Below are positions 1,122-54,177 of a DNA stretch of 64,000 bases, piece after piece. Position numbers and translations under genes: made by a program. Origin of the DNA: a virus; IMG/VR virus record IMGVR_UViG_3300007351_000277, positions 1 to 64,000 of that record; one strand, 5' to 3'. Under the pieces are notes generated by a model. The model did not search any database. It saw only the letters and a list, made by a program, of their open reading frames with translations, and had not been told where the DNA came from. Within the stretch, counting starts at the first letter, position 1, and every line of letters starts with the position of its first letter.

Positions 1122-1490
1122 ATGAAACGCTACAAGAAGATTCGGTATCGATGTCGTGGACGCAACATTCCCTGCAATGACCCAGATGATCCCATGGTGC
1201 AGCAGTGGGCACAGGCAGCGGAACTGGCCCGTAGTCCCAAAACACCACTGATGGTGCTGGAAAAGCTGGCTGACTCACCGGAAGAAATAGTGCTTATCGC
1301 TCTTATGGCTAACTCTCAATTACCTATGTCGCTTTGGCGAAAGCTGGCGTTTCATCGGGGGGTCGATGTGGCAGAGGCCGTGATGGAAGCGGAATTGTGC
1401 CCCATGGCTGTCTTGATAGACGCAGCCAAGCATCATCCCAGCAAACGTATACGTAACGTTGCTGGTAACATTTTAGGATGGCAAGAATGA
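1122..1490 (+). CDS. hypothetical protein; small terminase by position only
   Basis: 122-aa ORF that overlaps the terL start by 13 nt. It has helical-repeat-like segments (SPKTPLMVLEKLADSPEEIVLIALMANSQLP). No diagnostic motif. Confidence 0.4.
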   Translation: MKRYKKIRYRCRGRNIPCNDPDDPMVQQWAQAAELARSPKTPLMVLEKLADSPEEIVLIALMANSQLPMSLWRKLAFHRGVDVAEAVMEAELCPMAVLIDAAKHHPSKRIRNVAGNILGWQE

Positions 1491-12100: not shown

Positions 12101-14449
12101 GTTCAAGGTAGCTCGCTGGATAGTGCCATTATTGGTATCCTGCCGCCTATCTTGGGAACGTATTTTGAGATTCTTCTGAATAGGGACCTGTATCGTAACC
12201 GAGAGATCGTGCCGGATGATCGGAAGTATCTGCCACGTCCCGAGCAGTACACGCAGTGGACAGGTGAGTTTGCGATCCTGATGGGCAAGCAACTCAATAT
12301 GTCGCCAGCGCAGATTGAGCATCTTGTGATGGGCAACCTCGCTGGTGTGGGCAAGCAGATACTGGCTGGGGCTAACCTGGCAACACAACAACTTGTGCCT
12401 GTCAACAAGGGAACGGTGCAACCACGTGCTGGGGATTCTATATTTGCCTACTGGGTGCCAAAGGACGGGGACCCTGAATACTACACAAAGGACAAGGTTC
12501 CCGAAATAAGAATTAAGGCTGAGGCTGGTGAGGGTGCCTTGTACGTCGTATCGGCCAAGGACCGAGACGAAGCTGTATCCAAGGTCTACTCTAAGGACTT
12601 CCTGCATACCTACGGGGTAGAGACGCCTATCACGACCTTCCCGATAGTCGGTGGTATGGTAGGGGTGTTGTACCGAACCGGTGGGGGTGAGATTGACCGA
12701 CGTGCAAAAGAGGCAGTAGATCAAGAGATGGGTGAGGGTACGGTTGCGGAAACCCGACGTGGATGGGAATCTGCACGTCCCAAGCTGGATGAACTGAAAG
12801 CTGAGCAGATCAAGCTGGACGATAAGCTGTCAGCAGCGCTTATTAGCGTAGATGAATGGAAGCAGGAACGTCGTTTTCTGCAGACAAAGAGGGCTGCAAC
12901 TCTTGAAGCCATACAAGCAGTGCTGAGAAGGGCTGCGCTAACGGGTGATAAGGCTGCAATGTACAAGGAACTGCACGCCACCGTTGGTCGGGCGATTCCC
13001 GATAGGCGAGATCGAATCGAGGCGATGACGGCACTCTACATGGCGATAGAGCCAGGGGTACGTGATGACAATGAGCCGGACCTGGATGCTTTCTATGTTG
13101 CACGCAACGAGTTTCTGACGTCACTACCTGCTGCTGATCAGGAACTGGTCAAGGCGCAGTTGCGCAAGAATGCGACCCCTACTGAGTTGCGCTACTACGA
13201 GGCGCAGGACCTGTACCGACAGTATCTGCAGATACCACGTTACAAAGGGGTGGCTAGTGCCGAGAAAGCAGACGCTATGTACCAAGCACGTCGTAGGCTT
13301 GAGGAAATCGAGAACACCCTTCCGACCAATACCCCTAATCGTCGCTTGGTGGCACTGGACGCCTTGTCCAAAGTAGACGCCAGTGTTGCGTCGTTGGCCC
13401 GTGACGCATTCTTGCAGCAGGACAACTTGGATCGACGGAAGTTCTGGGATGATCATCCCTTGATGACCGAGTGGTTTGGGAAGGGCGTAACCGATAAGCC
13501 TGGACTCGCTACTGTATCGGTAGCTACCACGCTAGCGGGTCTACCCAAAGATACAGGGATCGTGCAGGCCAACGTCTACAATCAGTACCGGAACGAACTA
13601 GCTCGCCAAGAGAACGAATACTATGGGGGTGGCAGCGAGCAGGTACAGCAGCTAGTAACTGACTATGGTGCCCTGAGTACCGAACAACGAACGGCGTATC
13701 GGAAGGCGAATCCCGAAGAATACAAACTGGTTCAGTCAGAGTACGATAGGCGAGCCAAGTTGCTGGAACGTCCTGAGTTTGCTCTGTATGCTCGCTTTAT
13801 TCAGTTCCGTGACAGCATGGGGGATTACGATACCCGTAAGTTGGTGGAAAAGTTTGGAAGCAAGGATGCCAAAGAGATATTCCTGAGTGCGCTGATATCG
13901 GGTGACATTAAGCCAACGTGGGCTACGGGTACTGTGGCCTCGACGGAAGGTGCAGCAAAGCCTGCTACCACGACGACCACACGTACCACAACGACGACAG
14001 CAAAGGCTACCACTGCGTCGACGACAAAGACGACGACAACAGCGCCCAAGGTAGCCACAGCCAAGGCACCACTTACGCGTGCCGATCTGGTGGGTCAACG
14101 TACAGGGACGACTCGGCGTGACATATTCTTCACGTCGGATGGTAAGTTACGTCGGGACGTGGTGGTACGACCCGGTCTTCTGCCCGTGGCGCCACCAAAA
14201 CCAGGACGGTTTATAGCACCTGTACGAGAAGGCGCACCCTTCGACGAGACGCCGTATACCGGACCGGATAAGGAATGGGCCAAGGATTTTGAAAAGATAC
14301 ATGGTCGTCGTCCGACCTGGCTTGATTACGAGGATAGGCTTTGGTCGCTTGACTTCCTAGCTAAAAACAAAAGGCCACCCACTGACGCAGAATGGCGCGA
14401 GCAATACGGACTAAAATATCAACAGATACCGGTTAGGCTAAATGTCTGA
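6200..14449 (+). CDS. giant 2749-aa virion-associated (internal/ejection or polyvalent-type) protein
   Basis: Uninterrupted 8.25 kb ORF between portal and scaffold. It has an N-terminal acidic/Pro-rich region, a hydrophobic Ala/Gly-rich membrane-like block (SLAFAAPLMAASTVAALTAPLWVPAGLPAGGAAAVSVLGAVVAP) and several PE/PT-rich linkers. Near the C terminus there is a Thr-rich tract and then a ~60-aa module shared with the next gene. No catalytic motif recognised. Confidence 0.75.
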   Translation: MDIFDILESWGESFNRALDWGEDDPRLHDIPTYTPRDMGYDGTPETDLNTVSTQDLYPRDFTPFSDFLSQLAPEPEPLPELEPEWVPPQEAAPEPVPEIKIPDYRPFSQEPTDLGEKLYRSIMSGFGDFLATSASASDLFRKVVPLPEAPQKQLANAVLERLGFAPLVSQESVDIDVAEKTQELGETLREENYVEPTEWTGWESLADPEFLATTGARSLAFAAPLMAASTVAALTAPLWVPAGLPAGGAAAVSVLGAVVAPRVFESLLEAGGTYEESLARGMSDDEAVEAGKKTFIANMPLSAPDALQMLLTFPGLFKAVPLQARKAVVTNLMGQFGQKGVGAAKLLGVAGSEALEEVAQEAIGKWSLGDPVQWDKEMEQAAGIGALLGGGMYGGGTAAQRLVSQGAPPVGLSIEDVTRVDPSEAQRQWKSWRAMMERENKEFDVWSFGGEAPKRYRPQETAQLTQEQHERARDTWRNALMSDLLGGKTVPESTKAEYMKARQKLEFEGRSGKPDKSMREDWGDQYDEMVDRAKEYGLPVRGKAARAEEVASPVTTVEAPASSPVPDVAAGQMPRSPDLAAMEAETVAKQPWEMTRDEWGLKTNTRKVRFQKASTKDDVVEVSPWLALSNLRVGESFTIGRDKSFTVKSITDKTLTLVDDKGKQLRLDGLPGSPRVNSFLRDVEDELSMARTTQSYESIFRLNTKPTPKHPLLVALERDPVIQHRALVVQAIREGKPVPPEVLADYPDLAAQYGKAETVTPTEPVAPQPEPTVTPAVETQAAELLDVTPEVAAGEEVEATGAAPLAHKYWPVWEPVPGRKPWRIRDMETGENIRNKSGNVLAFESDEKASEHRDKIEATWRKQQGIDIPTNEPLPEYAEWQKMQQAAGEPVPTGTAPEVTSAIPEGGQPTSVQLAAASEARPAPDLTPEPITRQEPVGTIDSGQATTRPMAEDVSLPVDLQGAKPTYRYGDTQFDITFESDVDKALYIVQDAGKSKSDAKYMTYLRERFSGLDDTAIRDMGRTLRDSVIKPIAQEARKTDVSELTVPRTYAAEPVSPPIIEPAPTLPSVEEAMPETVTEPVPTEVTQPVPELPQEPTPEERKAARDALFEEDTAAAGKPDAPADYYAKALDWAKADEDATPFLPRLVSAYPNLSDKQVADIVREKQVINNVPAMDVTQKAGRGRRITQTPAKINDPQPVLTKVDIDNAQETVDNAAPFGNRTHITAGLDATLIAPSKPLLTRVRDFFWNLNEKFFWQDTWLSELEKKGKRSQKDLALINLDLIPQSALDMAADMASKGVVDAGKIAKAFPQLIPQQVDALVQHFTVKLPAEAVARRTVQRGAANAAERYLSKVGGYIELLKNIPTDIRDALDVYLIAMDQVDKAAIKNNPDRNWSWGTDPALIEKTIDELIMGVPERTAQTILAQLEPILGSDIFRQMDQRALIAKVGKPLGADGLAEVKRLANQLYRMKNEMLELKYETGLITKEQYDFFHDNFPHYSPIRITNYLKQASEGNPKGVTVKSNLIQHLTDEGTQKSQMSALQAYSEMVHQTFSLVMRNRTAREIARLRFMPGTEAIVKEVPIEYQVQEGTKEAEFYVFENGIRKKMLVIPEWAKAIRMDDYVLSGGMATLAKWLVSPLKWGATGANVLFLQRNMIGDMLTGFVREGVTPRQYMQAVRDVFGKQVYLTQFELGGGGLGGHGYHKFDSIPDEARAFKQSVTRLSTKEALAKFIQDMVTLKPVQDIGHKVEMLTRVATFMKRLTPEQRAAIENGTMKILDIPVEAVVAGKRVTMDFQRGGTGALVLNRFIPYFNVAFQAPVQIVRTFTEQSGPVGATLRLAAIVGLPVLLAEIWNSMFDEYEDVPQYVKNRSAIIMMPSPGKDRFGKAVPAYVEIPLREWAPVGMTIRESLRSIRKENPEMWRDMVAQTLRDQLGDERFAPVDRLAEGWRNMIPPDRTETALNAISAINPVQGSSLDSAIIGILPPILGTYFEILLNRDLYRNREIVPDDRKYLPRPEQYTQWTGEFAILMGKQLNMSPAQIEHLVMGNLAGVGKQILAGANLATQQLVPVNKGTVQPRAGDSIFAYWVPKDGDPEYYTKDKVPEIRIKAEAGEGALYVVSAKDRDEAVSKVYSKDFLHTYGVETPITTFPIVGGMVGVLYRTGGGEIDRRAKEAVDQEMGEGTVAETRRGWESARPKLDELKAEQIKLDDKLSAALISVDEWKQERRFLQTKRAATLEAIQAVLRRAALTGDKAAMYKELHATVGRAIPDRRDRIEAMTALYMAIEPGVRDDNEPDLDAFYVARNEFLTSLPAADQELVKAQLRKNATPTELRYYEAQDLYRQYLQIPRYKGVASAEKADAMYQARRRLEEIENTLPTNTPNRRLVALDALSKVDASVASLARDAFLQQDNLDRRKFWDDHPLMTEWFGKGVTDKPGLATVSVATTLAGLPKDTGIVQANVYNQYRNELARQENEYYGGGSEQVQQLVTDYGALSTEQRTAYRKANPEEYKLVQSEYDRRAKLLERPEFALYARFIQFRDSMGDYDTRKLVEKFGSKDAKEIFLSALISGDIKPTWATGTVASTEGAAKPATTTTTRTTTTTAKATTASTTKTTTTAPKVATAKAPLTRADLVGQRTGTTRRDIFFTSDGKLRRDVVVRPGLLPVAPPKPGRFIAPVREGAPFDETPYTGPDKEWAKDFEKIHGRRPTWLDYEDRLWSLDFLAKNKRPPTDAEWREQYGLKYQQIPVRLNV

Positions 14450-17941: not shown

Positions 17942-18406
17942 TTACCCGATGCAAGGTTCTTTGACAAGTGAATAGCGACCGTTGAGACGCCGCATCTCGA
18001 CAAAACATTCATATCGGAAGGCTCTTATTTGGGGGCTTAGTGGCATAATCTGGCCATTGGACTTGTGAGTCAAAGGGCCAAAGGAATCACGAAATCGCAG
18101 GGCCAATTCCAATTGGGCTTTCTTGATGATGATATAAGGCAACACGGCGTTGCATAGTTGATCAAAGAGGCGTCGCTCGACAATCCATTCGTATTTGGTT
18201 TTCCACCCCGAACGAGTTTCTCGTTTGTACTGTAAACCACCAAAAGTGGTTTGAAGCCAGTCAATCAGAATCTTATCGGTAGAGACCACGTAGATACGAA
18301 TACTATAGTCGGTCCTTGGATACTTCCCGCTACGGTAGATATTGATGCACCCTTCGCCATCAATGATACCAGCGAGATAGGCCAACTGGGAAACGGTCCA
18401 GCACAT
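17942..18406 (-). CDS. LAGLIDADG homing endonuclease, single-motif type
   Basis: Track ORF is 17942..18448. The motif LAYLAGIIDGEGCINIY lies near the N terminus. The start is probably ATG 18406 (MCWTVSQ) after AAAGGGG. Antisense to the capsid gene and intron. Confidence 0.85.
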   Translation of the reverse strand: MCWTVSQLAYLAGIIDGEGCINIYRSGKYPRTDYSIRIYVVSTDKILIDWLQTTFGGLQYKRETRSGWKTKYEWIVERRLFDQLCNAVLPYIIIKKAQLELALRFRDSFGPLTHKSNGQIMPLSPQIRAFRYECFVEMRRLNGRYSLVKEPCIG

Positions 18407-18438
18407 AAGATACACCCCTTTCATTGTGTCTGAGACTA

Positions 18439-18467
18439 AGTGTATCACTATAGTGTTAACTTGTCAA
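18439..18467 (-). promoter_or_regulatory. sigma70-like promoter for HEG-1 (TTGACA-N17-TACACT on the - strand)
   Basis: The reverse complement reads TTGACAagttaacactatagtgaTACACT. The -35 is formed by the 3' strand of the stem that closes the HEG-1 loop. Confidence 0.5.
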
Positions 18468-18580: not shown

Positions 18581-19351
18581 CTACTTGACTTTATATAGCA
18601 TCGATGGTGCCCAATAGGGTGCCATGATGTCCATCAACCTACGTGCATCGGAACCATAGAAGGTAACTCGATAACCCCCCTCACGCAAAAAGCGTAGGTG
18701 GGAATTCAGCCCATATGTTTTCCGAAACCAGTCTTGGATTGAATGCTGGACAGATTCGGGCCAAAGGCCAGTACAAAAGTAAAAGCCTTTGTCAAAGGTC
18801 CCAGACCCATCATCCATAAACCAGACTGCTAAAGAACGTGGGGTCAATTGCTGAAGTGCCTTTAGTGTGGGGACCTTGCCATCATCACACATAAACAACT
18901 TGAATGGCGTAAAGAGGTCAGAATGCACACAGGTGCGAAAACGCACGGAGCCAGCATTGATAATCACCCTGCCCTGACAGACAGTAGTTCGAGGAGCGTA
19001 ATGCTCAAGTTTGCCAGGAAAAGGCTGTAGTTGGCTATGAAGCCACAGAACATACCCTTCCTGATTGGCGCCATGCTCAATTGATAAGGATGGCCAGCGA
19101 CACCGAGTTGGGATGGCCAGGGAGCCATCACCCATCAGTTTTCCATATACGATTTCGAGTTGTTGCTGTGAGAATGGGGTTTGCTGGGCAGTAGTAAGGG
19201 GATAGCCCCTGCAGGGAATGGCATAGCGATGCAAGTAGGTGTAAACATCACCGTACTTGCGAGTGAGTGCCTTAGTTGACAATCCGAGATCAACATACTC
19301 GTGATACAACTCTTCCTTGGTCGGTGTTAATGTGGTTTTTGGTCGGCCCAT
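18581..19351 (-). CDS. LAGLIDADG homing endonuclease, double-motif type
   Basis: Track ORF is 18581..19372. The start is probably ATG 19351 (MGRPKTT) after GAGGAAG. Two motifs are present: YGKLMGDGSLAI and AVWFMDDGSGT. Antisense to the intron. Confidence 0.85.
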   Translation of the reverse strand: MGRPKTTLTPTKEELYHEYVDLGLSTKALTRKYGDVYTYLHRYAIPCRGYPLTTAQQTPFSQQQLEIVYGKLMGDGSLAIPTRCRWPSLSIEHGANQEGYVLWLHSQLQPFPGKLEHYAPRTTVCQGRVIINAGSVRFRTCVHSDLFTPFKLFMCDDGKVPTLKALQQLTPRSLAVWFMDDGSGTFDKGFYFCTGLWPESVQHSIQDWFRKTYGLNSHLRFLREGGYRVTFYGSDARRLMDIMAPYWAPSMLYKVK

Positions 19352-19371
19352 ATCTTCCTCTATTTTCGCCA

Positions 19372-19400
19372 AGCATAGCAGAAAATGAGGAGTAAGTCAA
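19372..19400 (-). promoter_or_regulatory. sigma70-like promoter for HEG-2 (TTGACT-N17-TATGCT on the - strand)
   Basis: The reverse complement reads TTGACTtactcctcattttctgcTATGCT. The -35 again lies in the 3' strand of the loop-closing stem. Confidence 0.5.
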
Positions 19401-19426
19401 GTAGGTTGCGGTGAGGTAACAGATTG

Positions 19427-19948
19427 GATCAGGCTGGGGTAGATGTGGACACAGTGGTACGTGATGTACTAACTGCGGGCACGTCTATCCAGTTTGCCTC
19501 AACCGCTATCTCTCGTGGCCAGGTGGGGTCGGGCATGTTGTTCAACTCGGCAGAGATCAGGGAAGTTCTACGGACTATGCGTCGAAACAACGCAAATCCT
19601 GTGGAGGACGATAAGTATATCGCTTTCGTTCATCCAGACACCTGGTCGGACCTGTTGAGCGATACCGACTTCAAGAGCTTCGGGCAGCACGCACAGCCGC
19701 GTGATACCACGAACGTTCTGTCCCATGCTAACACAGTGGATTACCTTGGTATCCGGTTCGTCATGACGAGTCGGGCCACGATTCATGCGTCGCTGGGTCT
19801 GTCTGGCGCTGATGTTTACTCGACCGTGGTGGTGGGTGACCAGGCTTATGGTGTTTCCGAACTGGAGACTCAGAACCTGCGAATCTACTTCAAGCCACGG
19901 GGATCGGGTGGAACCGGTGACCCAATAGACCAGATCAGCACGCTGGGT
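19427..19948 (+). CDS. major capsid protein, exon 2 (174 codons)
   Basis: DQAGVDVDTVVRDVLTAGTSIQFAS...YIAFVHPDTWSDLLSD...GIRFVMTSRA...VYSTVVVGDQAYGVSEL...KPRGSGGTGDPIDQISTLG. There is no plausible start or RBS of its own. It continues exon 1 in phase 0. Confidence 0.85.
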
Positions 19949-20196
19949 AAAGTGATAGTAGTAATACTTGTAGCCCAGCTAAAACCTGTCAAATTCAGGG
20001 AAAGTCCCTATAGGGGGATAATCCTGAGCCAAGGCCAGCTTTATGGCTGGCAAGGTGCAACGACTAGACGGCAGGGACTCGGTTTACTGAACTGAGTCAA
20101 GGTATAGTCTGAACTCACGAGTAATCGTGAGAGGTGGCAGAAATGGCCACCCGCCTATTCAGGTGGATGCCTGTTAGGTCCATAAGTAACAGAACG
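19949..20196 (+). mobile_element. group I intron 2 (248 nt, no ORF)
   Basis: P1: exon GCTGGGT (19942-19948) pairs with guide GCCCAGC (19973-19979). Core strings are GTCAAATTCAGGGAAAGTCCC (19988-), GAGCCAAGG, GACTAGACGGCA (20062-20073) and AAGGTATAGTC. These closely resemble my recollection of the Azoarcus/Anabaena tRNA group I introns. It ends GTAACAGAACG. Confidence 0.85.
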
Positions 20197-20292: not shown

Positions 20293-20316
20293 AGGGGTCG
20301 GGGTGACTCGACCCCT
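20293..20316 (+). terminator. 8-bp GC-rich hairpin after the capsid stop (AGGGGTCG / CGACCCCT)
   Basis: Read directly. The T-run is weak or absent, so function is uncertain. Confidence 0.35.
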
Positions 20317-20344
20317 TAACAAAACAGGAAAGGGACATACTCAT

Positions 20345-20887
20345 ATGCCCAGAGTGAGCAAGGATGATAATGTCGTACAGTCTGTGATAGAAATGCAGGC
20401 TGTACCAGTTGCTGCTGATGCAGTACAGTCTGCAGAAGAGACGCAGGCTGCGCCAGTTGATGCTGACAAAGTGACTATGTTGCTAGCTAGACTAGCAGAC
20501 ATGGAAGCAAAGCTGGTAGCGCTTACAGCAGCAATCCCCCCTACCCCTCAGAACATTGGTGAAGCGCCCCCCCAAAGCAAGGGGACCAAGTGGAGTACCA
20601 ACGCCGGGGAAGTGGTGCACGGTAACAAAGTACCATTCACTCACCATGATCTGGTAGAGCGGACCGGTGAGGTCAGTTGGTACAACTGGACGCGGTTCGA
20701 TCACTGTATCGTGATGGGTGTGCCCTATCGGGTTCCTGTCAACACCTTCGTGACTACGCCAGGGATCGTCAAAGCGCATCTTGAGGAGACCGAGCACGCG
20801 CAACGTCGGCCTGATTTTGTAGAACGGACGGGGGGCCATGTAGCGACTGGTGCCTTGGAAGGTCCGCCACCGCAGCGACCAGCCTAA
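20345..20887 (+). CDS. hypothetical structural-module protein
   Basis: Track ORF is 20303..20887. I moved the start to ATG 20345 (MPRVSKDD) after AGGAAAGGGA, because GTG 20303 lies in the hairpin loop. Confidence 0.55.
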   Translation: MPRVSKDDNVVQSVIEMQAVPVAADAVQSAEETQAAPVDADKVTMLLARLADMEAKLVALTAAIPPTPQNIGEAPPQSKGTKWSTNAGEVVHGNKVPFTHHDLVERTGEVSWYNWTRFDHCIVMGVPYRVPVNTFVTTPGIVKAHLEETEHAQRRPDFVERTGGHVATGALEGPPPQRPA

Positions 20888-45175: not shown

Positions 45176-45334
45176 GTGACACAGAGCATACTACCCTATT
45201 TGGACGACATCTGGGGCAGGCTGAACGAGATGGAAGCAATGGCCAACGAGATACTGGCCAAGTGTGCGCGTATCCGGGCACAGATCATCACGATCAAGCA
45301 GGGGGCAGGGCTTGACAGCCCAAAAGTGCCATAA
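45176..45334 (+). CDS. small hypothetical protein (52 aa)
   Basis: In-frame GTG 45176 after AAGGAG within track ORF 45104..45334. Confidence 0.4.
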   Translation: MTQSILPYLDDIWGRLNEMEAMANEILAKCARIRAQIITIKQGAGLDSPKVP

Positions 45335-45372
45335 GCGTTACCGATACCGAGGGTATAGAGATCGGTTTCCTG

Positions 45373-45888
45373 GTGACGCAGATGTGTGGACAATATAACG
45401 TTGATGTTTTGCTGTTTCTGGCCACCCTCATGGCAGAGTCAGGGCTGAATCCCAAGGCTGAAAGGTTTGGGTTCGAGACCCTGAACGCACAGCAGGCAAT
45501 CAACGCGGGAGACTGGGTAGCGTTACAGGCCATCATAGACCGTACCAAGCCAGATATCAGCTTTGGGTACACTCAGCTGATTGTGGGGACAGCAGCAGGC
45601 TATGGGATCGGGAATGGGCAGCACACGGTCGAGAACGTCCTTGATGTACGCGATAGGCTGTTCAATCGTCACGCATCCCTTGACTTGGGTGCTCAGCATT
45701 TACTGCGCAACATGGCTTCACCTAGTGATTGGGGCGATGATTGGCGACTACAGACCCTCATTGCCTACAACTCAGGCAGCCATCAGCCAAGGGGCAACTG
45801 GTACTGGCAAAGGTATCAGCAGAACATTCAGAACTACCTAGGGTGCCTGATCTGGGCTGAGAATCTACTGAAAACACAAGGGGGATAA
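45373..45888 (+). CDS. lytic transglycosylase (SLT-domain) endolysin
   Basis: LLFLATLMAESGLNPKAERF carries the catalytic Glu-Ser context. Further motifs: ISFGYTQL and LIAYNSG. Confidence 0.75.
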   Translation: MTQMCGQYNVDVLLFLATLMAESGLNPKAERFGFETLNAQQAINAGDWVALQAIIDRTKPDISFGYTQLIVGTAAGYGIGNGQHTVENVLDVRDRLFNRHASLDLGAQHLLRNMASPSDWGDDWRLQTLIAYNSGSHQPRGNWYWQRYQQNIQNYLGCLIWAENLLKTQGG

Positions 45889-45889
45889 C

Positions 45890-46156
45890 ATGGAAGGGGA
45901 CTTTCTGGTAGCCGGGGTATCGGCGCTGGCCATCACGATTGCGTTTGTGTTTGCGTTGCGCAGGATGTTGCATCTGACACGACAGGGTACGGTGGTGGCT
46001 GCATTCGTGATAGGCCAACTGCTTAGCGTTGGCAGTTACATGGCAGTACGTTACCCCGAGTTCACCGAGCTTTGGCAGGCCATCGTCGGTGGGCTTGTGG
46101 TGGCGCTGATGGCGATGGGCACATGGTCGGGTGGTAAGGCGCTGCAAGAGAAGTGA
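45890..46156 (+). CDS. membrane protein (three hydrophobic helices), holin/spanin-like candidate
   Basis: 88 aa: FLVAGVSALAITIAFVFAL, VVAAFVIGQLLSVGSYMAV, IVGGLVVALMAMG. Confidence 0.5.
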   Translation: MEGDFLVAGVSALAITIAFVFALRRMLHLTRQGTVVAAFVIGQLLSVGSYMAVRYPEFTELWQAIVGGLVVALMAMGTWSGGKALQEK

Positions 46157-46177
46157 TAGTGTGCCTGCAACATCCTA

Positions 46178-46206
46178 TTGACTCGTGGCGCCAGGCATGA
46201 TATATT
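46178..46206 (+). promoter_or_regulatory. sigma70-type promoter P-Y1 (TTGACT-N17-TATATT)
   Basis: Read directly. The upstream box CTGCAACATCCTA is duplicated at the second promoter. Confidence 0.65.
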
Positions 46207-46210
46207 GATG

Positions 46211-46350
46211 TTGGCAACCCCCGAGGGAAACTAATAAATAATCCGGGTCAGACCCTCTTGGTTGCTAACCCCCCTACCCGCTTCGATGAGTAGGGGCTTG
46301 GTCAAAACAAAGCAGGCACATGTGATGCATAATGTGCCTGCTTTGTTTTT
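46211..46350 (+). ncRNA. structured small RNA 1 (Y-RNA-like candidate)
   Basis: 5' TTGGCAACC (46211-46219) pairs with GGTTGCTAA (46260-46268). A second hairpin is CCCCTAC...GTAGGGG (46271-46296), followed by an intrinsic terminator. No ORF. Paralogous to RNA 2. Confidence 0.6.
46310..46350 (+). terminator. rho-independent terminator
   Basis: AAGCAGGCACAT...ATGTGCCTGCTT forms a 12-bp stem followed by TGTTTTT. Confidence 0.75.
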
Positions 46351-46366
46351 GCTCTGCAACATACTG

Positions 46367-46395
46367 TTGACTTATGGCATTAGGCATGATATATT
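46367..46395 (+). promoter_or_regulatory. sigma70-type promoter P-Y2 (TTGACT-N17-TATATT)
   Basis: Near-identical copy of P-Y1, including GGCATGATATATTGAT. Confidence 0.65.
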
Positions 46396-46399
46396 GATA

Positions 46400-46600
46400 T
46401 TGGCAACTGAGGCTGGAGGACGGGTCGAGTGTCGAGCAGCGCTTGTTATGCAATCGTCACGTCCCAAGTGCTGCTCAATGGACGTAGTGACGGACACGCA
46501 GAAGCTTGGTCCCACCATCTTGGTTGCTAATCCCCCTACTCACCTCGGTGGGTAGGCGCTTGGCGACTGTCGTAGCTTCAAAGGGGCTACGCCTAGTAAG
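46400..46600 (+). ncRNA. structured small RNA 2 (Y-RNA-like candidate; 3' end uncertain, may be the rsr leader)
   Basis: TTGGCAAC (46400-46407) pairs with GGTTGCTAA (46522-46530). Internal long-range stems are GAGCAGCGCTTG/CAAGTGCTGCTC and CGTCACGTCC/GGACGTAGTGACG. A hairpin CCTACTCACC/GGTGGGTAGG follows, then a T-loop-like hairpin CGTAGC-TTCAAAGGG-GCTACG. Confidence 0.5.
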
Positions 46601-46640
46601 GAACTACTGTATCCTGACTGGCCAGTCGCCCGAAGCACCC

Positions 46641-46668
46641 GAGGCCAGTCTTGCGCAGGACTGGCCTC
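46641..46668 (+). promoter_or_regulatory. 10-bp perfect hairpin GAGGCCAGTC/GACTGGCCTC upstream of the rsr RBS
   Basis: Read directly. It lies 22 nt upstream of ATG 46690 and may be a processing or attenuation structure. Confidence 0.4.
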
Positions 46669-46689
46669 AACTTTAGAAAGGAAACGCAG

Positions 46690-48276
46690 ATGCCCAGCAA
46701 AATCACAACCGTCTTTGGTAGTGGATCGGCACTTGAGAAGGCACCCCTGATCAACTATGAGGGTGCGCCTGCTTTCGACCGTGGCGACGAAGAGGGTCTG
46801 ATACGCACACTGATGACGGGCACGTTCGAGCCGACCTTTTACGCGGATGCCAAGACCCTGGCCAAAGATGCACAGGCCATCTTTCAGCAGTGGGCAGAGC
46901 GTGACCCCAAGTTTCTGGCCCAAGCCATTGTGTATGCTCGTAACCAGGGCTTCATGCGACTGGCCCCCATAACAGCGTTGGTGTACCTGTCGCAGGCAAA
47001 GGACAAGGTGCCCTTTTATTCAGCGTTCCGGCAAGCCATTAGGACGCCAGGGGACCTTCAGGACTTTCTGGTACTGGTTCGCGTCAGCAAGTTACGTGGC
47101 ACTGGACGGGCTGTGAAGCGTGCCTGCAACGAGTTTCTGGCTGGCCTTAGCGAGTACCATGTAATCAAATATGGCGCTGAGTCCCAGGCGTTGAGCCTGC
47201 GGGATATGTATCGCATTACCCGGCCCAAACTGGAAGGTAAGGCAAATGATCTGGCCAGGTATGTTATTGCCGGGGTCTGGACACCAGCGATGGAACAGGT
47301 TGAGTTATACGAGAGATTCAAGAGGGAGACCCACCCGGAAGAGAAGGCATGGCTGATCAATGAGGGCAGGTTGCCTCACGAAATCGTGACTGCCCACATC
47401 GGTAAGGACAAGGCGATGTGGACAAGCGTGGCTCGCCAGATGCCTATGTTTGCTTTGCTGCGCAATCTGGTCACCCTGTATCGACATGACTGCTTCGAGG
47501 ACAAGGCATTACTAGATCATGTGCTGGGGATGCTGACCAATAAGGAACGAGTGGCCAAATCCAAGCTGTTCCCATTCCGGTTTCTGGCAGCAAAGCGCAA
47601 GTGTGAGGAAGTAGGGCTTCCGCGCCTTATCCTAAGTGCACTTGAAGAAGCAGTAGAGCATTCACTGGTCAACGTCCCTGCTTTGCCTGGGCGAGTTCTG
47701 ATTGCCAACGACATATCGGGCAGCATGCAGAGTCCGATTAGTGCAACGTCGGACCTGCGTTGCTGTGATGTGGCGGGGGTACTGGCTGCTGCAATCTACC
47801 GTAAGTGTGAGGATGCAACGATCGTGTCCTTCAATCACGAGGCGCATCCCAGGGAACACCTTGGGGGACGTGGCATCCTTGAGATTGCAAATCGGATTAG
47901 CCAAGGGGATGGCGGGACTGATCTTTCGGCACCTCTCAGTTGGGCACACCGAATGAATAGGCAATTTGATACGGGCATTTTCATCACTGACTCCGAAGAT
48001 TGGGTGGCGTGGATGAAAGGCACAGAACTTACGTGGTATGGCATTCCTAGGACACTGGGGCGTGGTGCCATTGACATACTACGTTCTTATAAGAAACGGA
48101 ATCCTAATTTCAAGGCTTTTTTTCTGCAGGTACTGCCTTATGAACATGCCGTAGTACTACCATCTGAGCCTAACACGTGGTACTGCTACGGATGGAACGA
48201 TGAGGTGCTACGCTACATAGCGACTGAGGCATCTGGTGCAACGCAACTTGACACCGTGCGTAGCACGGTGTTATGA
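46690..48276 (+). CDS. rsr: Ro60-related protein Rsr (TROVE plus vWA domains)
   Basis: Track ORF is 46651..48276. ATG 46690 follows AAAGGAAA. Motifs match my recollection of Deinococcus Rsr: HVIKYGAESQALSLRDMYRITRPK, MPMFALLRNLVTLYRH, the MIDAS motif LIANDISGSM, GGTDLSAPL and IFITDSEDW. Confidence 0.92.
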   Translation: MPSKITTVFGSGSALEKAPLINYEGAPAFDRGDEEGLIRTLMTGTFEPTFYADAKTLAKDAQAIFQQWAERDPKFLAQAIVYARNQGFMRLAPITALVYLSQAKDKVPFYSAFRQAIRTPGDLQDFLVLVRVSKLRGTGRAVKRACNEFLAGLSEYHVIKYGAESQALSLRDMYRITRPKLEGKANDLARYVIAGVWTPAMEQVELYERFKRETHPEEKAWLINEGRLPHEIVTAHIGKDKAMWTSVARQMPMFALLRNLVTLYRHDCFEDKALLDHVLGMLTNKERVAKSKLFPFRFLAAKRKCEEVGLPRLILSALEEAVEHSLVNVPALPGRVLIANDISGSMQSPISATSDLRCCDVAGVLAAAIYRKCEDATIVSFNHEAHPREHLGGRGILEIANRISQGDGGTDLSAPLSWAHRMNRQFDTGIFITDSEDWVAWMKGTELTWYGIPRTLGRGAIDILRSYKKRNPNFKAFFLQVLPYEHAVVLPSEPNTWYCYGWNDEVLRYIATEASGATQLDTVRSTVL

Positions 48277-48283
48277 TGGGCAT

Positions 48284-48388
48284 GGCGAGGTGTAGATAAG
48301 CGTTACTTCAAGTTGTAACGCTAGTCCCTAACACGGACTAGCCAGTGGGTGCAAATCCCACAAAGTCGTTTATCGCTGCTTCCTTGCC
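48284..48388 (+). ncRNA. Y-RNA-like module A
   Basis: Terminal stem GGCGAGG/CCTTGCC. It carries the 5' box TGTAGATAAGCGTTACTTCAAG shared with modules B and C. Three internal hairpins are GCGTTAC-TTCAAGTT-GTAACGC, TAGTCC-CTAACAC-GGACTA and GTGGG-TGCAAAT-CCCAC. It starts 8 nt after the rsr stop. Confidence 0.5.
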
Positions 48389-48402
48389 ACTCTTAACAGC
48401 AT

Positions 48403-48471
48403 AGTGAGGTGTAGATCAGGGTTACTTCAATTTGCAGATTTGACCCGTACCTTGGTCGTCTCTTCCTCACT
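48403..48471 (+). ncRNA. Y-RNA-like module B (short, possibly degenerate)
   Basis: Terminal stem AGTGAGG/CCTCACT with the same 5' box (TGTAGATCAGGGTTACTTCAAT) and 3' box (CGTCTCTTCCTCAC). Confidence 0.35.
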
Positions 48472-48882
48472 TACCTTTTCAGCAGCCTCTGGTGAGGTGT
48501 AGTTCAGGGTTACTTCGATGGTTAATCGGGTGGTTGTGGGTTCAAGTCCCGCCACATACGTAACCCGTATGTGTAGCTCAATTGGTAGAGCACCTACGTG
48601 CCTTGAGCGCTTCTTCCTCACCTGATGACCTGCATACTCTGGTTTGTAAAGCAGTGATGCCAGGTCAGATTTTAATGCCTCAGCCAGATTGCAAACGGTG
48701 CTGATACGTGCATTGCCCCCACGCCTGCCCCGCTCTAGACGTGAGATTACCGATTGATCCACTTTGGCTTTTGCCGCTAACTGCCCCTGCGACCAGCCCC
48801 GTGCTAATCTCAATTCCCTTAAGACTGATCCGTCAAGCCTTACGTCTGTTTTGTGGGCGTTGATGCTTCCCCCTTGAAACAT
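48427..48882 (-). CDS. XRE-family HTH repressor-like protein (C-terminal extent doubtful)
   Basis: The N-terminal part LRELRLARGWSQGQLAAKAKVDQSVISRLERG is a classic cI/XRE HTH. The last ~70 codons run antisense through RNA module C and part of module B, and may be fortuitous. Confidence 0.65.
   Translation of the reverse strand: MFQGGSINAHKTDVRLDGSVLRELRLARGWSQGQLAAKAKVDQSVISRLERGRRGGNARISTVCNLAEALKSDLASLLYKPEYAGHQVRKKRSRHVGALPIELHIRVTYVAGLEPTTTRLTIEVTLNYTSPEAAEKVSEEETTKVRVKSAN
48491..48622 (+). ncRNA. YrlA-like RNA (module C) with a circularly permuted tRNA mimic
   Basis: Terminal stem GGTGAGG/CCTCACC. T-arm GTGGG-TTCAAGT-CCCGC (48536-48552). Loop-closed acceptor-like hairpin CACATACG-TAACC-CGTATGTG (48553-48573). 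D-arm TA-GCTC-AATTGGTA-GAGC-A (48574-48592). The order T-arm, closed acceptor, D-arm is the architecture described for bacterial YrlA. Confidence 0.65.
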
Positions 48883-48950
48883 GTCGATCCCCTTATTGTC
48901 ATTTTATCATAACATGAGGCATAATGCGACCAAACTGACTCCGAAATGCC

Positions 48951-48980
48951 TTGACAAGCTATGACAAAAGGCATTATAAT
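48951..48980 (+). promoter_or_regulatory. sigma70 consensus promoter (TTGACA-N18-TATAAT) for the rightward early operon
   Basis: Read directly. It is flanked and overlapped by AAGGCATT/AATGCCTT half-sites at 48945-48952, 48968-48975 and 49005-49012. Confidence 0.6.
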
Positions 48981-49010
48981 AGGGTCAGCCAAAAAGCAGG
49001 GATTAAGGCA

Positions 49011-49250
49011 TTGACAGATATTGTGACCAGACTCAAAGAACTACAACGACAACGCACCCAGGCAGAGTTTGCTGCCGAGCTGGAAATCAGCCAGGGTATG
49101 CTCAGCAAGATTTATGCCAGGAAGCGACGCATCGGCATAACGACCGCCAGAGCAATCGTCAGGCACTACCCTGACCTGACGTTACCCCTGGCTCTTTTCT
49201 TGCTATCCGATCTGGCAAGCGACAATGTGTCAGGCGCACACGGGGCCTAG
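49011..49250 (+). CDS. Cro/XRE-like HTH protein
   Basis: Track ORF is 48951..49250, but its first 20 codons are the promoter. In-frame TTG 49011 follows GGATTAAGG. HTH: QAEFAAELEISQGMLSKIYARKR. Confidence 0.6.
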   Translation: MTDIVTRLKELQRQRTQAEFAAELEISQGMLSKIYARKRRIGITTARAIVRHYPDLTLPLALFLLSDLASDNVSGAHGA

Positions 49251-49278
49251 TCCCCTGTGGATAACGAGGAGGTGACCT

Positions 49279-49491
49279 ATGGTAGCGACCTATCATCCGA
49301 CCTTGGCTGACATGGAACACCGATTCAGGCTTGCCATCCCGTTCACACCCGACGAGGATTACCAGGAGGTGGCGAGGGATGCGAAATGCGAGAACTGCGG
49401 GAAAAGGGGGATGCAAGCCTACGGGTGGAAGGGCCAGAGCACCCATTGGGTGTTCTACTGCCGACGCTGCGGGGCAGCGTCGGAAATCTAG
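49279..49491 (+). CDS. small zinc-finger protein
   Basis: 70 aa with RBS GAGGAGGTG. Cys pairs: CENCGKRG...YCRRCG. Confidence 0.5.
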   Translation: MVATYHPTLADMEHRFRLAIPFTPDEDYQEVARDAKCENCGKRGMQAYGWKGQSTHWVFYCRRCGAASEI

Positions 49492-53485: not shown

Positions 53486-53674
53486 ATGGAATGGCTGACG
53501 GTTGTGGTTGGCGTGGTGGCGTTTATTGTGGGGGCGAACGTCGGCCTGGTTATGGCAGGGCTGTGCCAGGTGGCGAAGGAAAACGAGATCAAGCAGCACG
53601 CGCCAGCGCCAGAGCAGGACGGACAGGACACGGCAGAAGCCGTAGTCCGGTATCTGAACGGGGGGAAGTCGTGA
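53486..53674 (+). CDS. small membrane protein
   Basis: In-frame ATG 53486 within track ORF 53447..53674. Hydrophobic segment WLTVVVGVVAFIVGANVGLVMAGL. Confidence 0.45.
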   Translation: MEWLTVVVGVVAFIVGANVGLVMAGLCQVAKENEIKQHAPAPEQDGQDTAEAVVRYLNGGKS

Positions 53675-54177
53675 TCATACTTTGCGATATTGACGGGGTG
53701 TTGGCTGATTGCAGCCACCGCAAGCACCACATCGAGCAGAACCCAAAGGACTGGGAAGCATTCTTCGATCCCGATGAAGTAATCAATGATGAGGTCATTC
53801 CAACGGGGAGAGATGTGTTGCACTGCCTGACAGAACAGGGACGCAGCTGGGTAACATTCGTTTCGGGGCGCAGCGAGACAACGAGGAAAGTAACCGCAAA
53901 ATGGATTGATAAGAATGTGCTGCTTGGATACATGGACGATGATTTCCTCTTTCGGACTATAGATGACCATCGTCCTGATTATCAATTCAAGGGCGAGATT
54001 TACCGCCGATTTAGAATGCTGTATCCCAAGTGTCGTATCTTCGTCATTGACGACAACATACGCAACGTAGAGGCTGCGATAGCGTGTGGCTGCACTGCCC
54101 TGCATTTCCGTTGGCCTGGGGAAGATAAAATGTGGGTGATGTCGGGTGCCAACAACGCGTTCGAGGTGACCGCATGA
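53671..54177 (+). CDS. HAD-superfamily phosphatase (nucleotidase / polynucleotide 3'-phosphatase-like)
   Basis: In-frame GTG 53671 within track ORF 53491..54177. DxDxT-type motif ILCDIDGVL, then VSGRSE and FVIDDN. Confidence 0.65.
   Translation: MIILCDIDGVLADCSHRKHHIEQNPKDWEAFFDPDEVINDEVIPTGRDVLHCLTEQGRSWVTFVSGRSETTRKVTAKWIDKNVLLGYMDDDFLFRTIDDHRPDYQFKGEIYRRFRMLYPKCRIFVIDDNIRNVEAAIACGCTALHFRWPGEDKMWVMSGANNAFEVTA

What the first reader, a model, noticed from the sequence alone, without database searches (positions are those of the whole stretch)
46157..48640. Phage-borne Ro60 (Rsr) module flanked on both sides by about five structured RNA genes
Seen in sequence. A 528-aa TROVE plus vWA protein carries the Rsr hallmarks MPMFALLRNL, the MIDAS motif DISGSM, GGTD and TDSEDW. 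It lies between the lysis cassette and the immunity switch. It is preceded by two promoter-driven structured RNAs and followed within 8 nt by three tandem structured modules. Established knowledge: bacterial Rsr binds Y RNAs (YrlA/YrlB) encoded next to it and tethers PNPase or other nucleases for structured-RNA decay and stress responses. Ro orthologues occur in a minority of bacteria and in a few mycobacteriophages. Inference: this would be a complete, self-contained viral Ro RNP with an expanded and diversified Y-RNA set. It may retarget host RNA decay or tRNA/rRNA quality control during infection, or counter RNA-targeting defences.
Basis: partly seen in the sequence, partly recalled or inferred. 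Interest (0 to 1): 0.8.

Follow-up and report, generated by a model that had tools for sequence, protein, structure and literature searches.

The report
Phage Ro60 gene with Y RNAs
This tailed phage carries a Ro60 (Rsr) RNA-binding protein gene followed by three tandem Y RNA genes, a kind of viral module already described, plus two unexplained promoter-driven structured RNAs upstream that have no relatives in the data searched.

Summary
The sequence observation holds. ORF 46690-48276 (+) is a full-length Ro60/Rsr (TROVE plus Ro60-vWA, MIDAS motif intact). It lies between an SLT lysin/holin-like pair and a divergent HTH switch in a tailed phage.

Seven bases after its stop codon begin three tandem modules: Y1 48284-48388, Y2 48403-48471 and Y3 48491-48622. 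A covariance model built only from other loci finds exactly these three in 64 kb (E 1e-6 to 5e-9; next best hit 11 bits). Y3 also has the permuted tRNA-like domain of YrlA. The same two-helix handle covaries across about 45 modules next to rsr in Chloroflexi-type genomes and phage contigs. Those loci carry 1-6 modules each, so three is ordinary and not an expanded set.

The two upstream elements (U1, U2) are real paralogues behind strong sigma-70-type promoters. They are not Y RNAs by that model, match no Rfam family and have no relatives in the collections searched. U2 runs on as the rsr leader.

Phage Ro60 with adjacent Y RNAs is already published (22 phages in 2014; Thermus phage phiLo in 2025). 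TROVE homologues occur in 448 GenBank phage records.

Verdict: a new member of a known kind, with one small orphan puzzle (U1/U2).

The parts
46178..46206 (+). P_U1: sigma-70-type promoter TTGACT-N17-TATATT with TG extended -10
   Evidence: One of 4 such sites in 64 kb. 85% identical to P_U2 over 54 nt (repeat family D3).
46210..46296 (+). U1 core. The closing stem is 46210-46219 paired with 46260-46269, around a 40-nt insert. One unpaired base follows, then hairpin 46271-46296.
   Evidence: Fold; U1/U2 consensus fold. The predicted start near 46213 is an inference from the -10 position.
46304..46355 (+). Intrinsic terminator after U1: perfect 18-bp stem, 10-nt loop, then a T5 run
   Evidence: inverted repeat I2; fold. 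Rfam shows only spurious miRNA-hairpin matches here.
46367..46395 (+). P_U2: second copy of the same promoter
46399..46557 (+). U2 core. It has the same closing stem (46399-46408 paired with 46522-46531) around a 113-nt unrelated insert, followed by a second hairpin at about 46533-46556.
   Evidence: (D2, I1)
46558..46689 (+). Structured rsr leader. It includes a perfect hairpin (46641-46668) and a purine-rich ribosome-binding site just before the ATG. No terminator separates U2 from rsr.
   Evidence: (I6)
46690..48276 (+). rsr: Ro60 orthologue, 528 aa, TROVE ring domain plus vWA domain with MIDAS DxSxS
48248..48277 (+). P_Y: promoter TTGACA-N18-TATGAT (with TG) inside the last rsr codons. The stop codon lies within the -10 hexamer. 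The predicted start, G48284, is the first base of Y1.
   Evidence: The same arrangement occurs in L002.
48284..48388 (+). Y1: Y RNA with the family handle (helix 1, internal loop, helix 2, UUACUUC). Its variable domain holds three hairpins, one of them T-arm-like.
   Evidence: R1 model 37.1 bits, E 1.4e-6; fold z = -5.7; helix tests
48403..48471 (+). Y2: short Y RNA (handle plus a small loop), comparable to YrlB-type short Y RNAs
   Evidence: R1 model 47.7 bits, E 4.6e-9
48491..48622 (+). Y3: YrlA-type Y RNA. It has the handle plus a permuted tRNA-like domain: T arm, acceptor-like stem and D arm.
   Evidence: R1 model 46.8 bits, E 7.3e-9. Rfam YrlA 41.1 bits, E 6e-7, full model length but below the gathering score of 69.
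48427..48882 (-). cI-like HTH repressor ORF. It is a neighbour, not part of the RNP. Its residues 76-151 are encoded antisense to Y3 and part of Y2.

Best explanation
The locus is a phage-encoded Ro60 ribonucleoprotein module. It consists of the rsr gene and three Y RNA genes (Y1-Y3), transcribed as a tandem array from their own strong promoter, which is embedded in the end of rsr.

Each Y RNA has the same handle. The 5' and 3' ends pair to form helix 1. An asymmetric internal loop and helix 2 follow, then a conserved UUACUUC. Each carries a different distal module: Y3 a permuted tRNA-like domain, Y1 three hairpins including a T-arm-like one, and Y2 almost nothing.

By analogy with D. radiodurans, Salmonella and Thermus phage phiLo, the handle would bind the phage Rsr ring. 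The distal modules would tether partners such as host PNPase. The infected or lysogenic cell would then gain a machine for degrading or handling structured RNA. This step is inferred and was not tested.

The two upstream elements are a separate matter. They are two copies of one promoter plus a structured 5' element. U1 most likely makes a discrete RNA of about 140 nt, ended by a strong terminator. U2 is most likely the 5' leader of the rsr mRNA. Their function is unknown. My working guess is a shared 5' structural or regulatory element, not extra Y RNAs.
For: Protein:
- Pfam TROVE and vWA_Ro60 match.
- The best solved-structure matches are phage phiLo Ro60, D. radiodurans Rsr and Xenopus and human Ro60.
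- The MIDAS residues D341, S343, S345, T410 and D434 are invariant across 24 relatives.

Y RNAs:
- Model R1, built from 12 modules of other loci, finds exactly Y1-Y3 in 64 kb on both strands. Scores are 37-48 bits, and the next best hit is 11 bits.
- On the seed alignment, 91.5% of cells are paired, against 71% after shuffling and 55-62% after sliding. Nine of 14 pairs change on both sides.
- Helix 1 anchor test: 7/7 pairs in 30 of 45 modules, against 5% for swapped partners, with 21 distinct arm sequences.
- Helix 2 anchor test: 6/6 pairs in 23 of 25 modules, against 14% for swapped partners.
- All 47 R1 hits in related loci lie on the rsr strand next to rsr.
- Y3 matches Rfam YrlA over the full model length at E 6e-7.

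Promoters:
- The four best sigma-70-type sites in the window are P_U1, P_U2, P_Y and the cro-side promoter.
- The predicted P_Y start coincides with the first base of Y1.

Precedent: PMC4201824 reports Y RNAs within 4 kb of rsr on the same strand and at least two per species, and lists 22 phages. PMC12135203 shows phage Ro60 binding two phage Y-like RNAs and host PNPase.
Against: - No expression or binding data exist for this phage.
- Y3 is below Rfam's gathering score (41 against 69 bits), as are all YrlA-type modules of this clade.
- The published 5' motif GNCGAA is replaced here by GNG(A/U)UACUUC, so Rsr binding to this handle is inferred from position and conservation only.
- No terminator follows Y3, so the 3' ends must come from processing, which is unverified.
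- For U1/U2 there is no comparative evidence at all. The single compensatory pair in their closing stem lies upstream of the predicted transcription start.
Confidence: 0.85

Rival explanations
1. All five RNAs are Rsr ligands. U1 and U2 would be a second, unrelated class of Y-like RNA. The conserved closing stem would be a handle and the variable insert an effector module, giving the phage an enlarged Ro RNP repertoire.
For: U1 and U2 have the general Y-RNA design. The ends pair, the stem is conserved between paralogues, and the inserts are unrelated (39 and 112 nt). They lie within 500 nt of rsr on the same strand behind strong promoters. In other species Y RNAs can lie upstream of rsr (L001; PMC4201824; PMC12135203). 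PMC4201824 notes that some Rsr-bound RNAs escaped bioinformatic detection.
Against: They lack the handle motifs shared by every Y module of this clade, and model R1 does not hit them. Rfam gives no Y-family match. Nothing similar occurs in 75 related rsr loci, in the phage contigs with the same Rsr clade, or in IMG/VR pattern scans. U2 has no 3' end of its own.
Confidence: 0.12
2. U1 and U2 are cis-acting, promoter-proximal RNA elements that modify the transcribing polymerase, as the put RNAs of phage HK022 do. Transcription from P_U1 would then read through the strong terminator at 46304-46355 and continue through rsr and the Y array.
For: The architecture matches the published put description: two paralogous copies with sequence similarity, each made of two stem-loops, placed just downstream of strong phage promoters (PMC9378689). 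U1 has stem I, one unpaired base, then stem II. It is followed 8 nt later by a strong intrinsic terminator.
Against: The resemblance is architectural only, and no sequence or model comparison with put was possible. Stem I carries inserts of very different size (39 and 112 nt), unlike the roughly 70-nt put RNAs. put acts on E. coli RNA polymerase, and nothing is known for the likely Chloroflexi host. A terminator directly after a short RNA is just as well explained by a stand-alone sRNA gene.
Confidence: 0.12
3. The module is a lysogenic-conversion cassette (a moron) and not a lytic-cycle function. It would be expressed from its own promoters in the prophage and give the lysogen Ro-dependent tolerance to stress such as UV, starvation or oxidative damage.
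For: Its position between the lysis genes and the immunity region is typical of morons. It has three autonomous near-consensus promoters and its own terminator. Cellular Rsr promotes survival after UV and in stationary phase (PMC4201824 and the introduction of PMC12135203). Related copies sit in contigs with an integrase and HTH genes (L012).
Against: No integrase was found within the window. The P_U1 and P_U2 promoters share the AGGCATKATA element with the cro-side promoter, which could mean repression in the lysogen. The Y-array transcripts run convergently into the repressor gene, which suits lytic expression better.
Confidence: 0.3
4. The downstream repeats are not Y RNAs. They would be degenerate tRNA-derived sequence, terminators, or the real coding sequence of the repressor's C-terminal half on the other strand.
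For: ORF 48882..48427 stays open through Y3 and part of Y2. Y3 contains tRNA-like arms.
Against: ARAGORN finds no tRNA. The handle is specific and covaries across dozens of rsr-linked modules. The repressor's extension has no protein homologues, apart from one ORF that matches only the stretch antisense to the tRNA-like domain. Other HTH relatives are 93-124 aa long.
Confidence: 0.03

Closest known systems
Thermus phage phiLo Ro60 with Yrl1 and Yrl2 (PMC12135203; PDB 9KOP, 9L5Y)
   Same: A phage-encoded Ro60 with TROVE and vWA domains. It is the best solved-structure match to this protein (E 4.6e-22). Several phage-encoded Y-like RNAs lie next to the gene on the same strand. The published work shows Ro60 binding those RNAs and forming a complex with host PNPase.
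   Different: In phiLo there are two RNAs, located upstream and identified through a CGAA motif. Here three lie downstream in a tandem array with their own promoter, and the motif is GNG(A/U)UACUUC. Protein identity is low (an HMM-level match only). The likely host phylum differs.
Bacterial rsr-Y RNA loci: Salmonella rsr-yrlBA-rtcBA, M. smegmatis YrlA/YrlB, D. radiodurans Yrn1/Yrn2 with PNPase (RYPER) (PMC4201824)
   Same: Y RNAs lie within 4 kb of rsr on the same strand, with at least two per locus. One has a tRNA-like module and another is a short hairpin type. They are processed from a common precursor. As in Salmonella, the RNAs follow rsr.
   Different: No rtcB or rtcA and no sigma-54/RtcR control here. 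Instead there are sigma-70-type promoters, one of them inside the gene end. The handle sequence differs from GNCGAA. The YrlA model scores below Rfam's threshold.
Rsr-Y arrays in Chloroflexi-type genomes and phage contigs retrieved here (L002, L005, L006, L020, L061, L082, L095 and others)
   Same: The closest Rsr relatives (32-52% identity over the full length). They share the same two-helix handle, the same tandem arrangement and, in L002, the same promoter within the end of rsr.
   Different: Module number varies from 1 to 6, and the array lies upstream of rsr in Herpetosiphon-type loci and in L001. None of them has anything resembling U1 or U2.
HK022 putL/putR antiterminator RNAs (PMC9378689), compared with U1/U2 only
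   Same: Two paralogous two-stem RNA elements placed just downstream of strong phage promoters and upstream of terminators.
   Different: No sequence relationship was shown. The U inserts differ greatly in length. The activity was not tested, and the host polymerase is different.

Membership tests
Ro60 / Rsr (TROVE family RNA-binding ring protein) | TROVE (HEAT-repeat ring) domain | tested here: met
   Pfam PF05731, E 1.5e-16, 61 bits against a cut-off of 23. 172 homologues at E <= 1e-10, nearly all carrying TROVE plus vWA_Ro60.
Ro60 / Rsr (TROVE family RNA-binding ring protein) | C-terminal vWA domain with a MIDAS motif (DxSxS ... T ... D) | tested here: met
   PF25045, E 1.2e-14. DISGSM, GGTD and TDSEDW are present. 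D341, S343, S345, T410 and D434 are invariant in 24 relatives.
Ro60 / Rsr (TROVE family RNA-binding ring protein) | Sequence similarity to experimentally solved Ro60 proteins over most of the length | tested here: met
   9KOP/9L5Y (phage phiLo) 4.6e-22, 2NVO (D. radiodurans Rsr) 3e-20, 1YVP (Xenopus Ro) 1.4e-19. The matches cover residues 13-445.
Ro60 / Rsr (TROVE family RNA-binding ring protein) | Closed ring fold and binding of Y RNA or misfolded RNA | not tested
   No structure prediction was run. Binding needs experiment.
YrlA (Rfam RF02553) | Score at or above Rfam's gathering threshold (69 bits) | tested here: not met
   Y3 scores 41.1 bits, E 6e-7, over the full model 1-114. Every YrlA-type module of this Rsr clade is also below threshold, at 31-53 bits.
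YrlA (Rfam RF02553) | Permuted tRNA-like domain (T arm, acceptor-like stem, D arm) enclosed by a 5'/3' stem | tested here: met
   The Rfam alignment of Y3 shows GUGGGUUCAAGUCCCGC, an 8-bp stem-loop and GUAGCUCAAUUGGUAGAGC. The fold agrees.
YrlA (Rfam RF02553) | Encoded within about 4 kb of rsr on the same strand | tested here: met
   Y3 starts 215 nt after the rsr stop codon, on the same strand.
YrlA (Rfam RF02553) | 5' motif GNCGAAN0-1G, proposed as the Rsr contact (PMC4201824) | tested here: not met
   The aligned position reads AGGGUUAC or AGCGUUAC. The clade-wide consensus is GNG(A/U)UACUUC.
Chloroflexi-type Y RNA handle family (defined here, model R1) | Helix 1 (7 bp or more), an internal loop of 5' UGNN and 3' about 7-8 nt ending in CUU, helix 2 (7 bp), then (A/U)UACUUC. 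Must be detected by a model built without the window. | tested here: met
   Y2 47.7 bits, Y3 46.8 bits, Y1 37.1 bits. No other hit in the window exceeds 11 bits. Covariation is shown.
Chloroflexi-type Y RNA handle family (defined here, model R1) | The same test applied to U1 and U2 | tested here: not met
   No R1 hit in 46157-46690 at E <= 10 with filters off. The motif is absent even with 3 mismatches allowed.
Y RNA (functional definition) | Stable small RNA bound by Ro60 and dependent on it for accumulation | not testable with these tools
   Needs northern blots or RNA-seq and RIP in the infected host.
rsr-rtcBA RNA repair operon | RtcB ligase, RtcA cyclase and an RtcR/sigma-54 promoter linked to rsr | tested here: not met
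   Neighbouring ORFs are a lysin, HTH proteins, methylases, ThyX, SSB and a clamp. Only a HAD_PNKP phosphatase domain lies about 5 kb away. The promoters are sigma-70-type.
put-type antiterminator RNA (considered for U1/U2) | Two paralogous two-stem RNAs downstream of early promoters | tested here: inconclusive
   The architecture is compatible, but the inserts differ (39 and 112 nt). No put model or sequence was available for comparison.
put-type antiterminator RNA (considered for U1/U2) | Suppression of downstream terminators in cis | not testable with these tools
   Needs reporter or in vitro transcription assays.

The most novel reading that the evidence does not exclude
U1 and U2 are a previously unseen class of RNA attached to a viral Ro module. 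One possibility is a second type of Rsr ligand whose conserved closing stem is an alternative handle. The other is a cis-acting element that lets transcription from P_U1 pass the strong terminator and so couples expression of rsr and the Y array to a phage decision. In both cases the convergent, terminator-less Y array would also act as an antisense brake on the adjacent repressor gene.
Probability: 0.15. Interest if true: 0.6.

Novelty: new member of a known kind. Interest (0 to 1): 0.35.

Why it matters
The finding adds a well-delineated example to a known class. It comes from a poorly studied phage-host group, probably Chloroflexota. It also yields a usable covariance model and a consensus handle (helix 1, loop, helix 2, UUACUUC) for a Y RNA subfamily that Rfam's YrlA model does not capture at its threshold.

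The comparative data show that tandem Y RNA arrays of up to six modules follow rsr in several phage contigs. This suggests that phages diversify the effector ends of Y RNAs while keeping a single handle.

What viral Ro RNPs do during infection is still an open question. This locus offers clean predicted RNA boundaries and promoters for testing it. It does not change the concept.

Tried and rejected
- DNA similarity to GenBank phages for 45300-49300: no match.
- Exact-pattern scans for the U 3' segment in IMG/VR and in JGI metagenomes: 0 hits each. The source contig itself is not in either collection.
- Gapped closing-stem pattern in IMG/VR: 21 hits, all lacking the promoter and hairpin and lying in apparent coding sequence, so I treated them as chance.
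- BLAST of U1/U2 against 75 rsr loci and against the rest of the window: nothing beyond 12-nt matches. This also gives no support for an antisense target within the phage.
- An RNAduplex target scan timed out and was dropped.
- Y-motif scan of IMG/VR: 108 hits, mostly chance. Only 6 had a TROVE gene nearby.
- MAFFT on joined 5'+3' pseudo-sequences could not register the two handle subtypes. A first alignment of short modules was too ragged. Both were replaced by alignment A5.
- The repressor's C-terminal extension as a real domain: rejected.
- Looking up the source contig through the repressor protein failed.
- The supplement of Chen et al. 2014 and the 2020 Annual Review article were not available. 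I therefore could not check whether this clade's Y RNAs had already been listed.
- A search for an RNA-repair partner near rsr found only a PNKP-type phosphatase domain.

Full report
WHAT IS THERE

The window is a tailed-phage genome segment. It carries a large terminase at 1478-3022, a portal, glycosyltransferases and a sliding clamp. It also carries ThyX, SSB and Dam and C5 methylases.

It matches Pfam TROVE (E 1.5e-16) and the Ro60-specific vWA domain (E 1.2e-14). Its best matches among solved structures are the Ro60 of Thermus phage phiLo, D. radiodurans Rsr, and Xenopus and human Ro60. The MIDAS residues are invariant in an alignment with 23 relatives.

Upstream lie an SLT-domain lysin and an 88-aa hydrophobic ORF. 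Downstream lies a divergent pair of HTH genes. The stated context, lysis genes on one side and an immunity-type switch on the other, is therefore correct. The holin assignment is only an inference from hydrophobicity.

THE DOWNSTREAM MODULES ARE Y RNAs

Seven bases after the stop codon, three tandem units begin. They share GAGGUGUAG(A/U)U(A/C)AG(C/G)GUUACUUC at the 5' end and CUUCCU(C/U) at the 3' end. Rfam detects only the third. It matches YrlA over the full model length at 41 bits (E 6e-7), which is below the gathering score of 69. The match shows a clear T arm, an acceptor-like stem and a D arm.

I collected loci encoding relatives of this Rsr from metagenomes, genomes and IMG/VR. The closest are 45-52% identical over the full length, and two short fragments reach 60-61%. 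Several of the closest are labelled Ktedonobacterales, and Herpetosiphon is at 37-39%. In these loci the same motif recurs 1-6 times next to rsr, always on the rsr strand, either downstream or upstream.

Two non-circular tests support the structure. In each, the arms were fixed by conserved anchors and true partners were compared with swapped partners under the same search.
- Helix 1 is perfect (7/7) in 30 of 45 modules, against 5% of controls, with 21 different arm sequences.
- Helix 2 is perfect (6/6) in 23 of 25 modules, against 14% of controls.

On an alignment of 12 complete short modules from other loci, 91.5% of cells pair. The figure is 71% after shuffling and 55-62% after sliding the partners. 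Nine of 14 pairs show changes on both sides.

A covariance model (R1) built from that alignment contains no window sequence. Run with filters off, it finds exactly three hits in the 64-kb window: 48403-48471 (47.7 bits), 48491-48622 (46.8 bits) and 48284-48388 (37.1 bits). The next best hit scores 11 bits.

The modules are therefore members of a Y RNA subfamily typical of this Rsr clade. Its handle differs from the published GNCGAA motif (PMC4201824), which probably explains the sub-threshold Rfam scores throughout the clade. The 3' strand of the sister subtype (CACUUGUC) resembles the animal Y RNA 3' strand. That comparison rests on my own recollection and was not tested.

EXPRESSION SIGNALS

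A search for TTGACW-N16-18-TATRWT finds only four sites in the whole window, where 0.11 are expected. All four are on the + strand and all lie in this region: 46178, 46367, 48248 and 48951.

The site at 48248-48277 lies inside the last codons of rsr. The TGA stop codon is part of its -10 hexamer, and the usual 7-nt spacing puts the start at G48284, which is the first base of Y1. L002, one of the closest full-length relatives (52% identity), has the same promoter-in-gene-end arrangement.

No terminator follows Y3. The array is therefore probably one transcript that is processed, as reported for M. smegmatis (PMC4201824). That step is inferred.

THE UPSTREAM ELEMENTS

U1 and U2 are real paralogues. 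A 54-nt block (promoter plus the 5' strand of a stem) is 85% identical between them. A 56-nt block (the 3' strand plus a second hairpin) is 82% identical. The inserts between these blocks are unrelated, 39 and 112 nt long.

Both fold as a 10-bp closing stem, the insert, about one unpaired base and then a second hairpin. U1 is followed by a perfect 18-bp hairpin with a T run, which is a strong intrinsic terminator. U2 has no terminator and continues for 130 nt of structured leader to the rsr start codon.

They are not Y RNAs by any test available. They lack the handle motif, model R1 does not hit them and Rfam gives no family match.

They also have no relatives anywhere I could look:
- 75 rsr loci;
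- the phage contigs carrying the same Rsr clade;
- IMG/VR;
- the JGI metagenome collection.

The only covariation is one G:C to A:U swap at the outermost pair. The predicted transcription start would exclude that pair from the RNA. Their function is therefore open.

I rank the readings as follows:
1. A shared 5' structural or regulatory element, with U1 a stand-alone small RNA and U2 the rsr leader.
2. A put-like antiterminator, which rests on an architectural analogy only (PMC9378689).
3. A second kind of Rsr ligand.

HOW IT MOST LIKELY WORKS

Shown here:
- a complete Ro60 gene;
- three adjacent same-strand RNAs with a conserved, covarying handle and divergent distal modules, one of them tRNA-like;
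- strong promoter-like sites placed to drive them.

Established for relatives: Rsr binds Y RNAs, and the Y RNA tethers Rsr to PNPase to degrade structured RNA (D. radiodurans and Salmonella; PMC4201824). A phage Ro60 binds two phage Y-like RNAs and forms a complex with host PNPase (PMC12135203).

Inferred for this phage: Rsr binds the Y1-Y3 handle, and the distinct distal modules recruit different partners or gate the ring. The cell thereby gains or redirects structured-RNA turnover. Whether this serves the lytic cycle or the lysogen cannot be decided from sequence alone.

COMPARISON AND NOVELTY

Phage Ro60 is common. 448 GenBank phage records hold a homologue, from Mycobacterium, Streptomyces, Bacteroides, Gordonia, Xanthomonas and other hosts.

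Adjacent phage Y RNAs were reported in 2014 (22 phages) and characterised biochemically in 2025. Within the same Rsr clade, IMG/VR contigs carry four (L082) and six (L095) tandem modules after rsr.

The window's three modules are thus neither expanded nor unusual. This is a new member of a known kind.

The new details are modest:
- a Y handle subfamily that Rfam misses at its threshold;
- a Y promoter embedded in the end of the gene;
- the orphan U1/U2 pair;
- the antisense overlap of the Y array with the repressor ORF.

VERDICT

Observation: confirmed. Interpretation: partly supported. Interest is moderate to low (0.35). The most novel surviving reading concerns U1/U2 (probability about 0.15).

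Noticed in passing
window 48427-48882 (-) against Y2/Y3 at 48403-48622 (+): The cI-like HTH ORF stays open for 75 codons beyond its HTH domain, and those codons are encoded antisense to Y3 and part of Y2. The only 'homologue' of that part matches just the stretch antisense to the tRNA-like domain (GLEPTTTRLTIEVT). Other HTH relatives are 93-124 aa long. The Y array has no terminator, so its transcripts should run convergently into the repressor gene. Antisense or transcriptional interference is possible.
   Followed up: partly
window 48248-48284: The rsr stop codon (TGA, 48274-48276) lies inside the -10 hexamer TATGAT of the Y-array promoter. The predicted start is the first base of Y1. A similar promoter within the end of rsr is present in L002 (3740-3769).
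   Followed up: partly
window 46193, 46382, 48969; also 48945-48974: AGGCAT(G/T)ATA occurs three times in 64 kb (0.19 expected), each time abutting the -10 of P_U1, P_U2 or the cro-side promoter. The cro-side promoter is also bracketed by the inverted repeat AATGCCTT / AAGGCATT. These may be shared operator half-sites linking U1/U2 and rsr expression to the immunity switch.
   Followed up: partly
window 19881-20131 (+), with 17942-18448 (-) and 18581-19372 (-): A group I intron (Rfam, 86 bits, above threshold) interrupts a capsid-like ORF pair (19424-20095 and 20303-20887). Two LAGLIDADG endonuclease ORFs lie just upstream on the opposite strand.
   Followed up: partly
window 53491-54177 (+): An ORF with a polynucleotide kinase-phosphatase type HAD phosphatase domain (E 1e-10) lies about 5 kb from rsr. 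No RNA ligase or RtcB was seen among the neighbouring ORFs, which are a DNA replication and modification block.
   Followed up: partly
window 46616-46668: In the rsr leader the complementary octamers GACUGGCC and GGCCAGUC occur three times (46617, 46643, 46660), which allows alternative pairings. The perfect hairpin at 46641-46668 ends 22 nt before the ATG. This could be an attenuator-like switch. Two 17-18-nt complementarities to the rsr coding region were also reported: 46248-46265 with 46784-46801, and 46620-46636 with 46949-46965.
   Followed up: no
window 6200-14449 (+): A single 2749-aa ORF lies in the structural region. It was not examined.
   Followed up: no
Related loci: L095 3890-4635, L061 1272-2383, L082 2275-2632, L020 4209-4620: These loci hold tandem arrays of 4-6 Y modules next to rsr, two of them in IMG/VR phage contigs of about 68 kb. 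The handle comes in two subtypes, GGUG...CUUCC and GGCUG...CUUGUC, which differ by one base pair moved between helix 1 and helix 2.
   Followed up: partly
L005 2149-2389 (-): A T-box leader (96 bits, above threshold) lies immediately upstream of rsr on the opposite strand in a cellular relative. It is unrelated to the finding.
   Followed up: no
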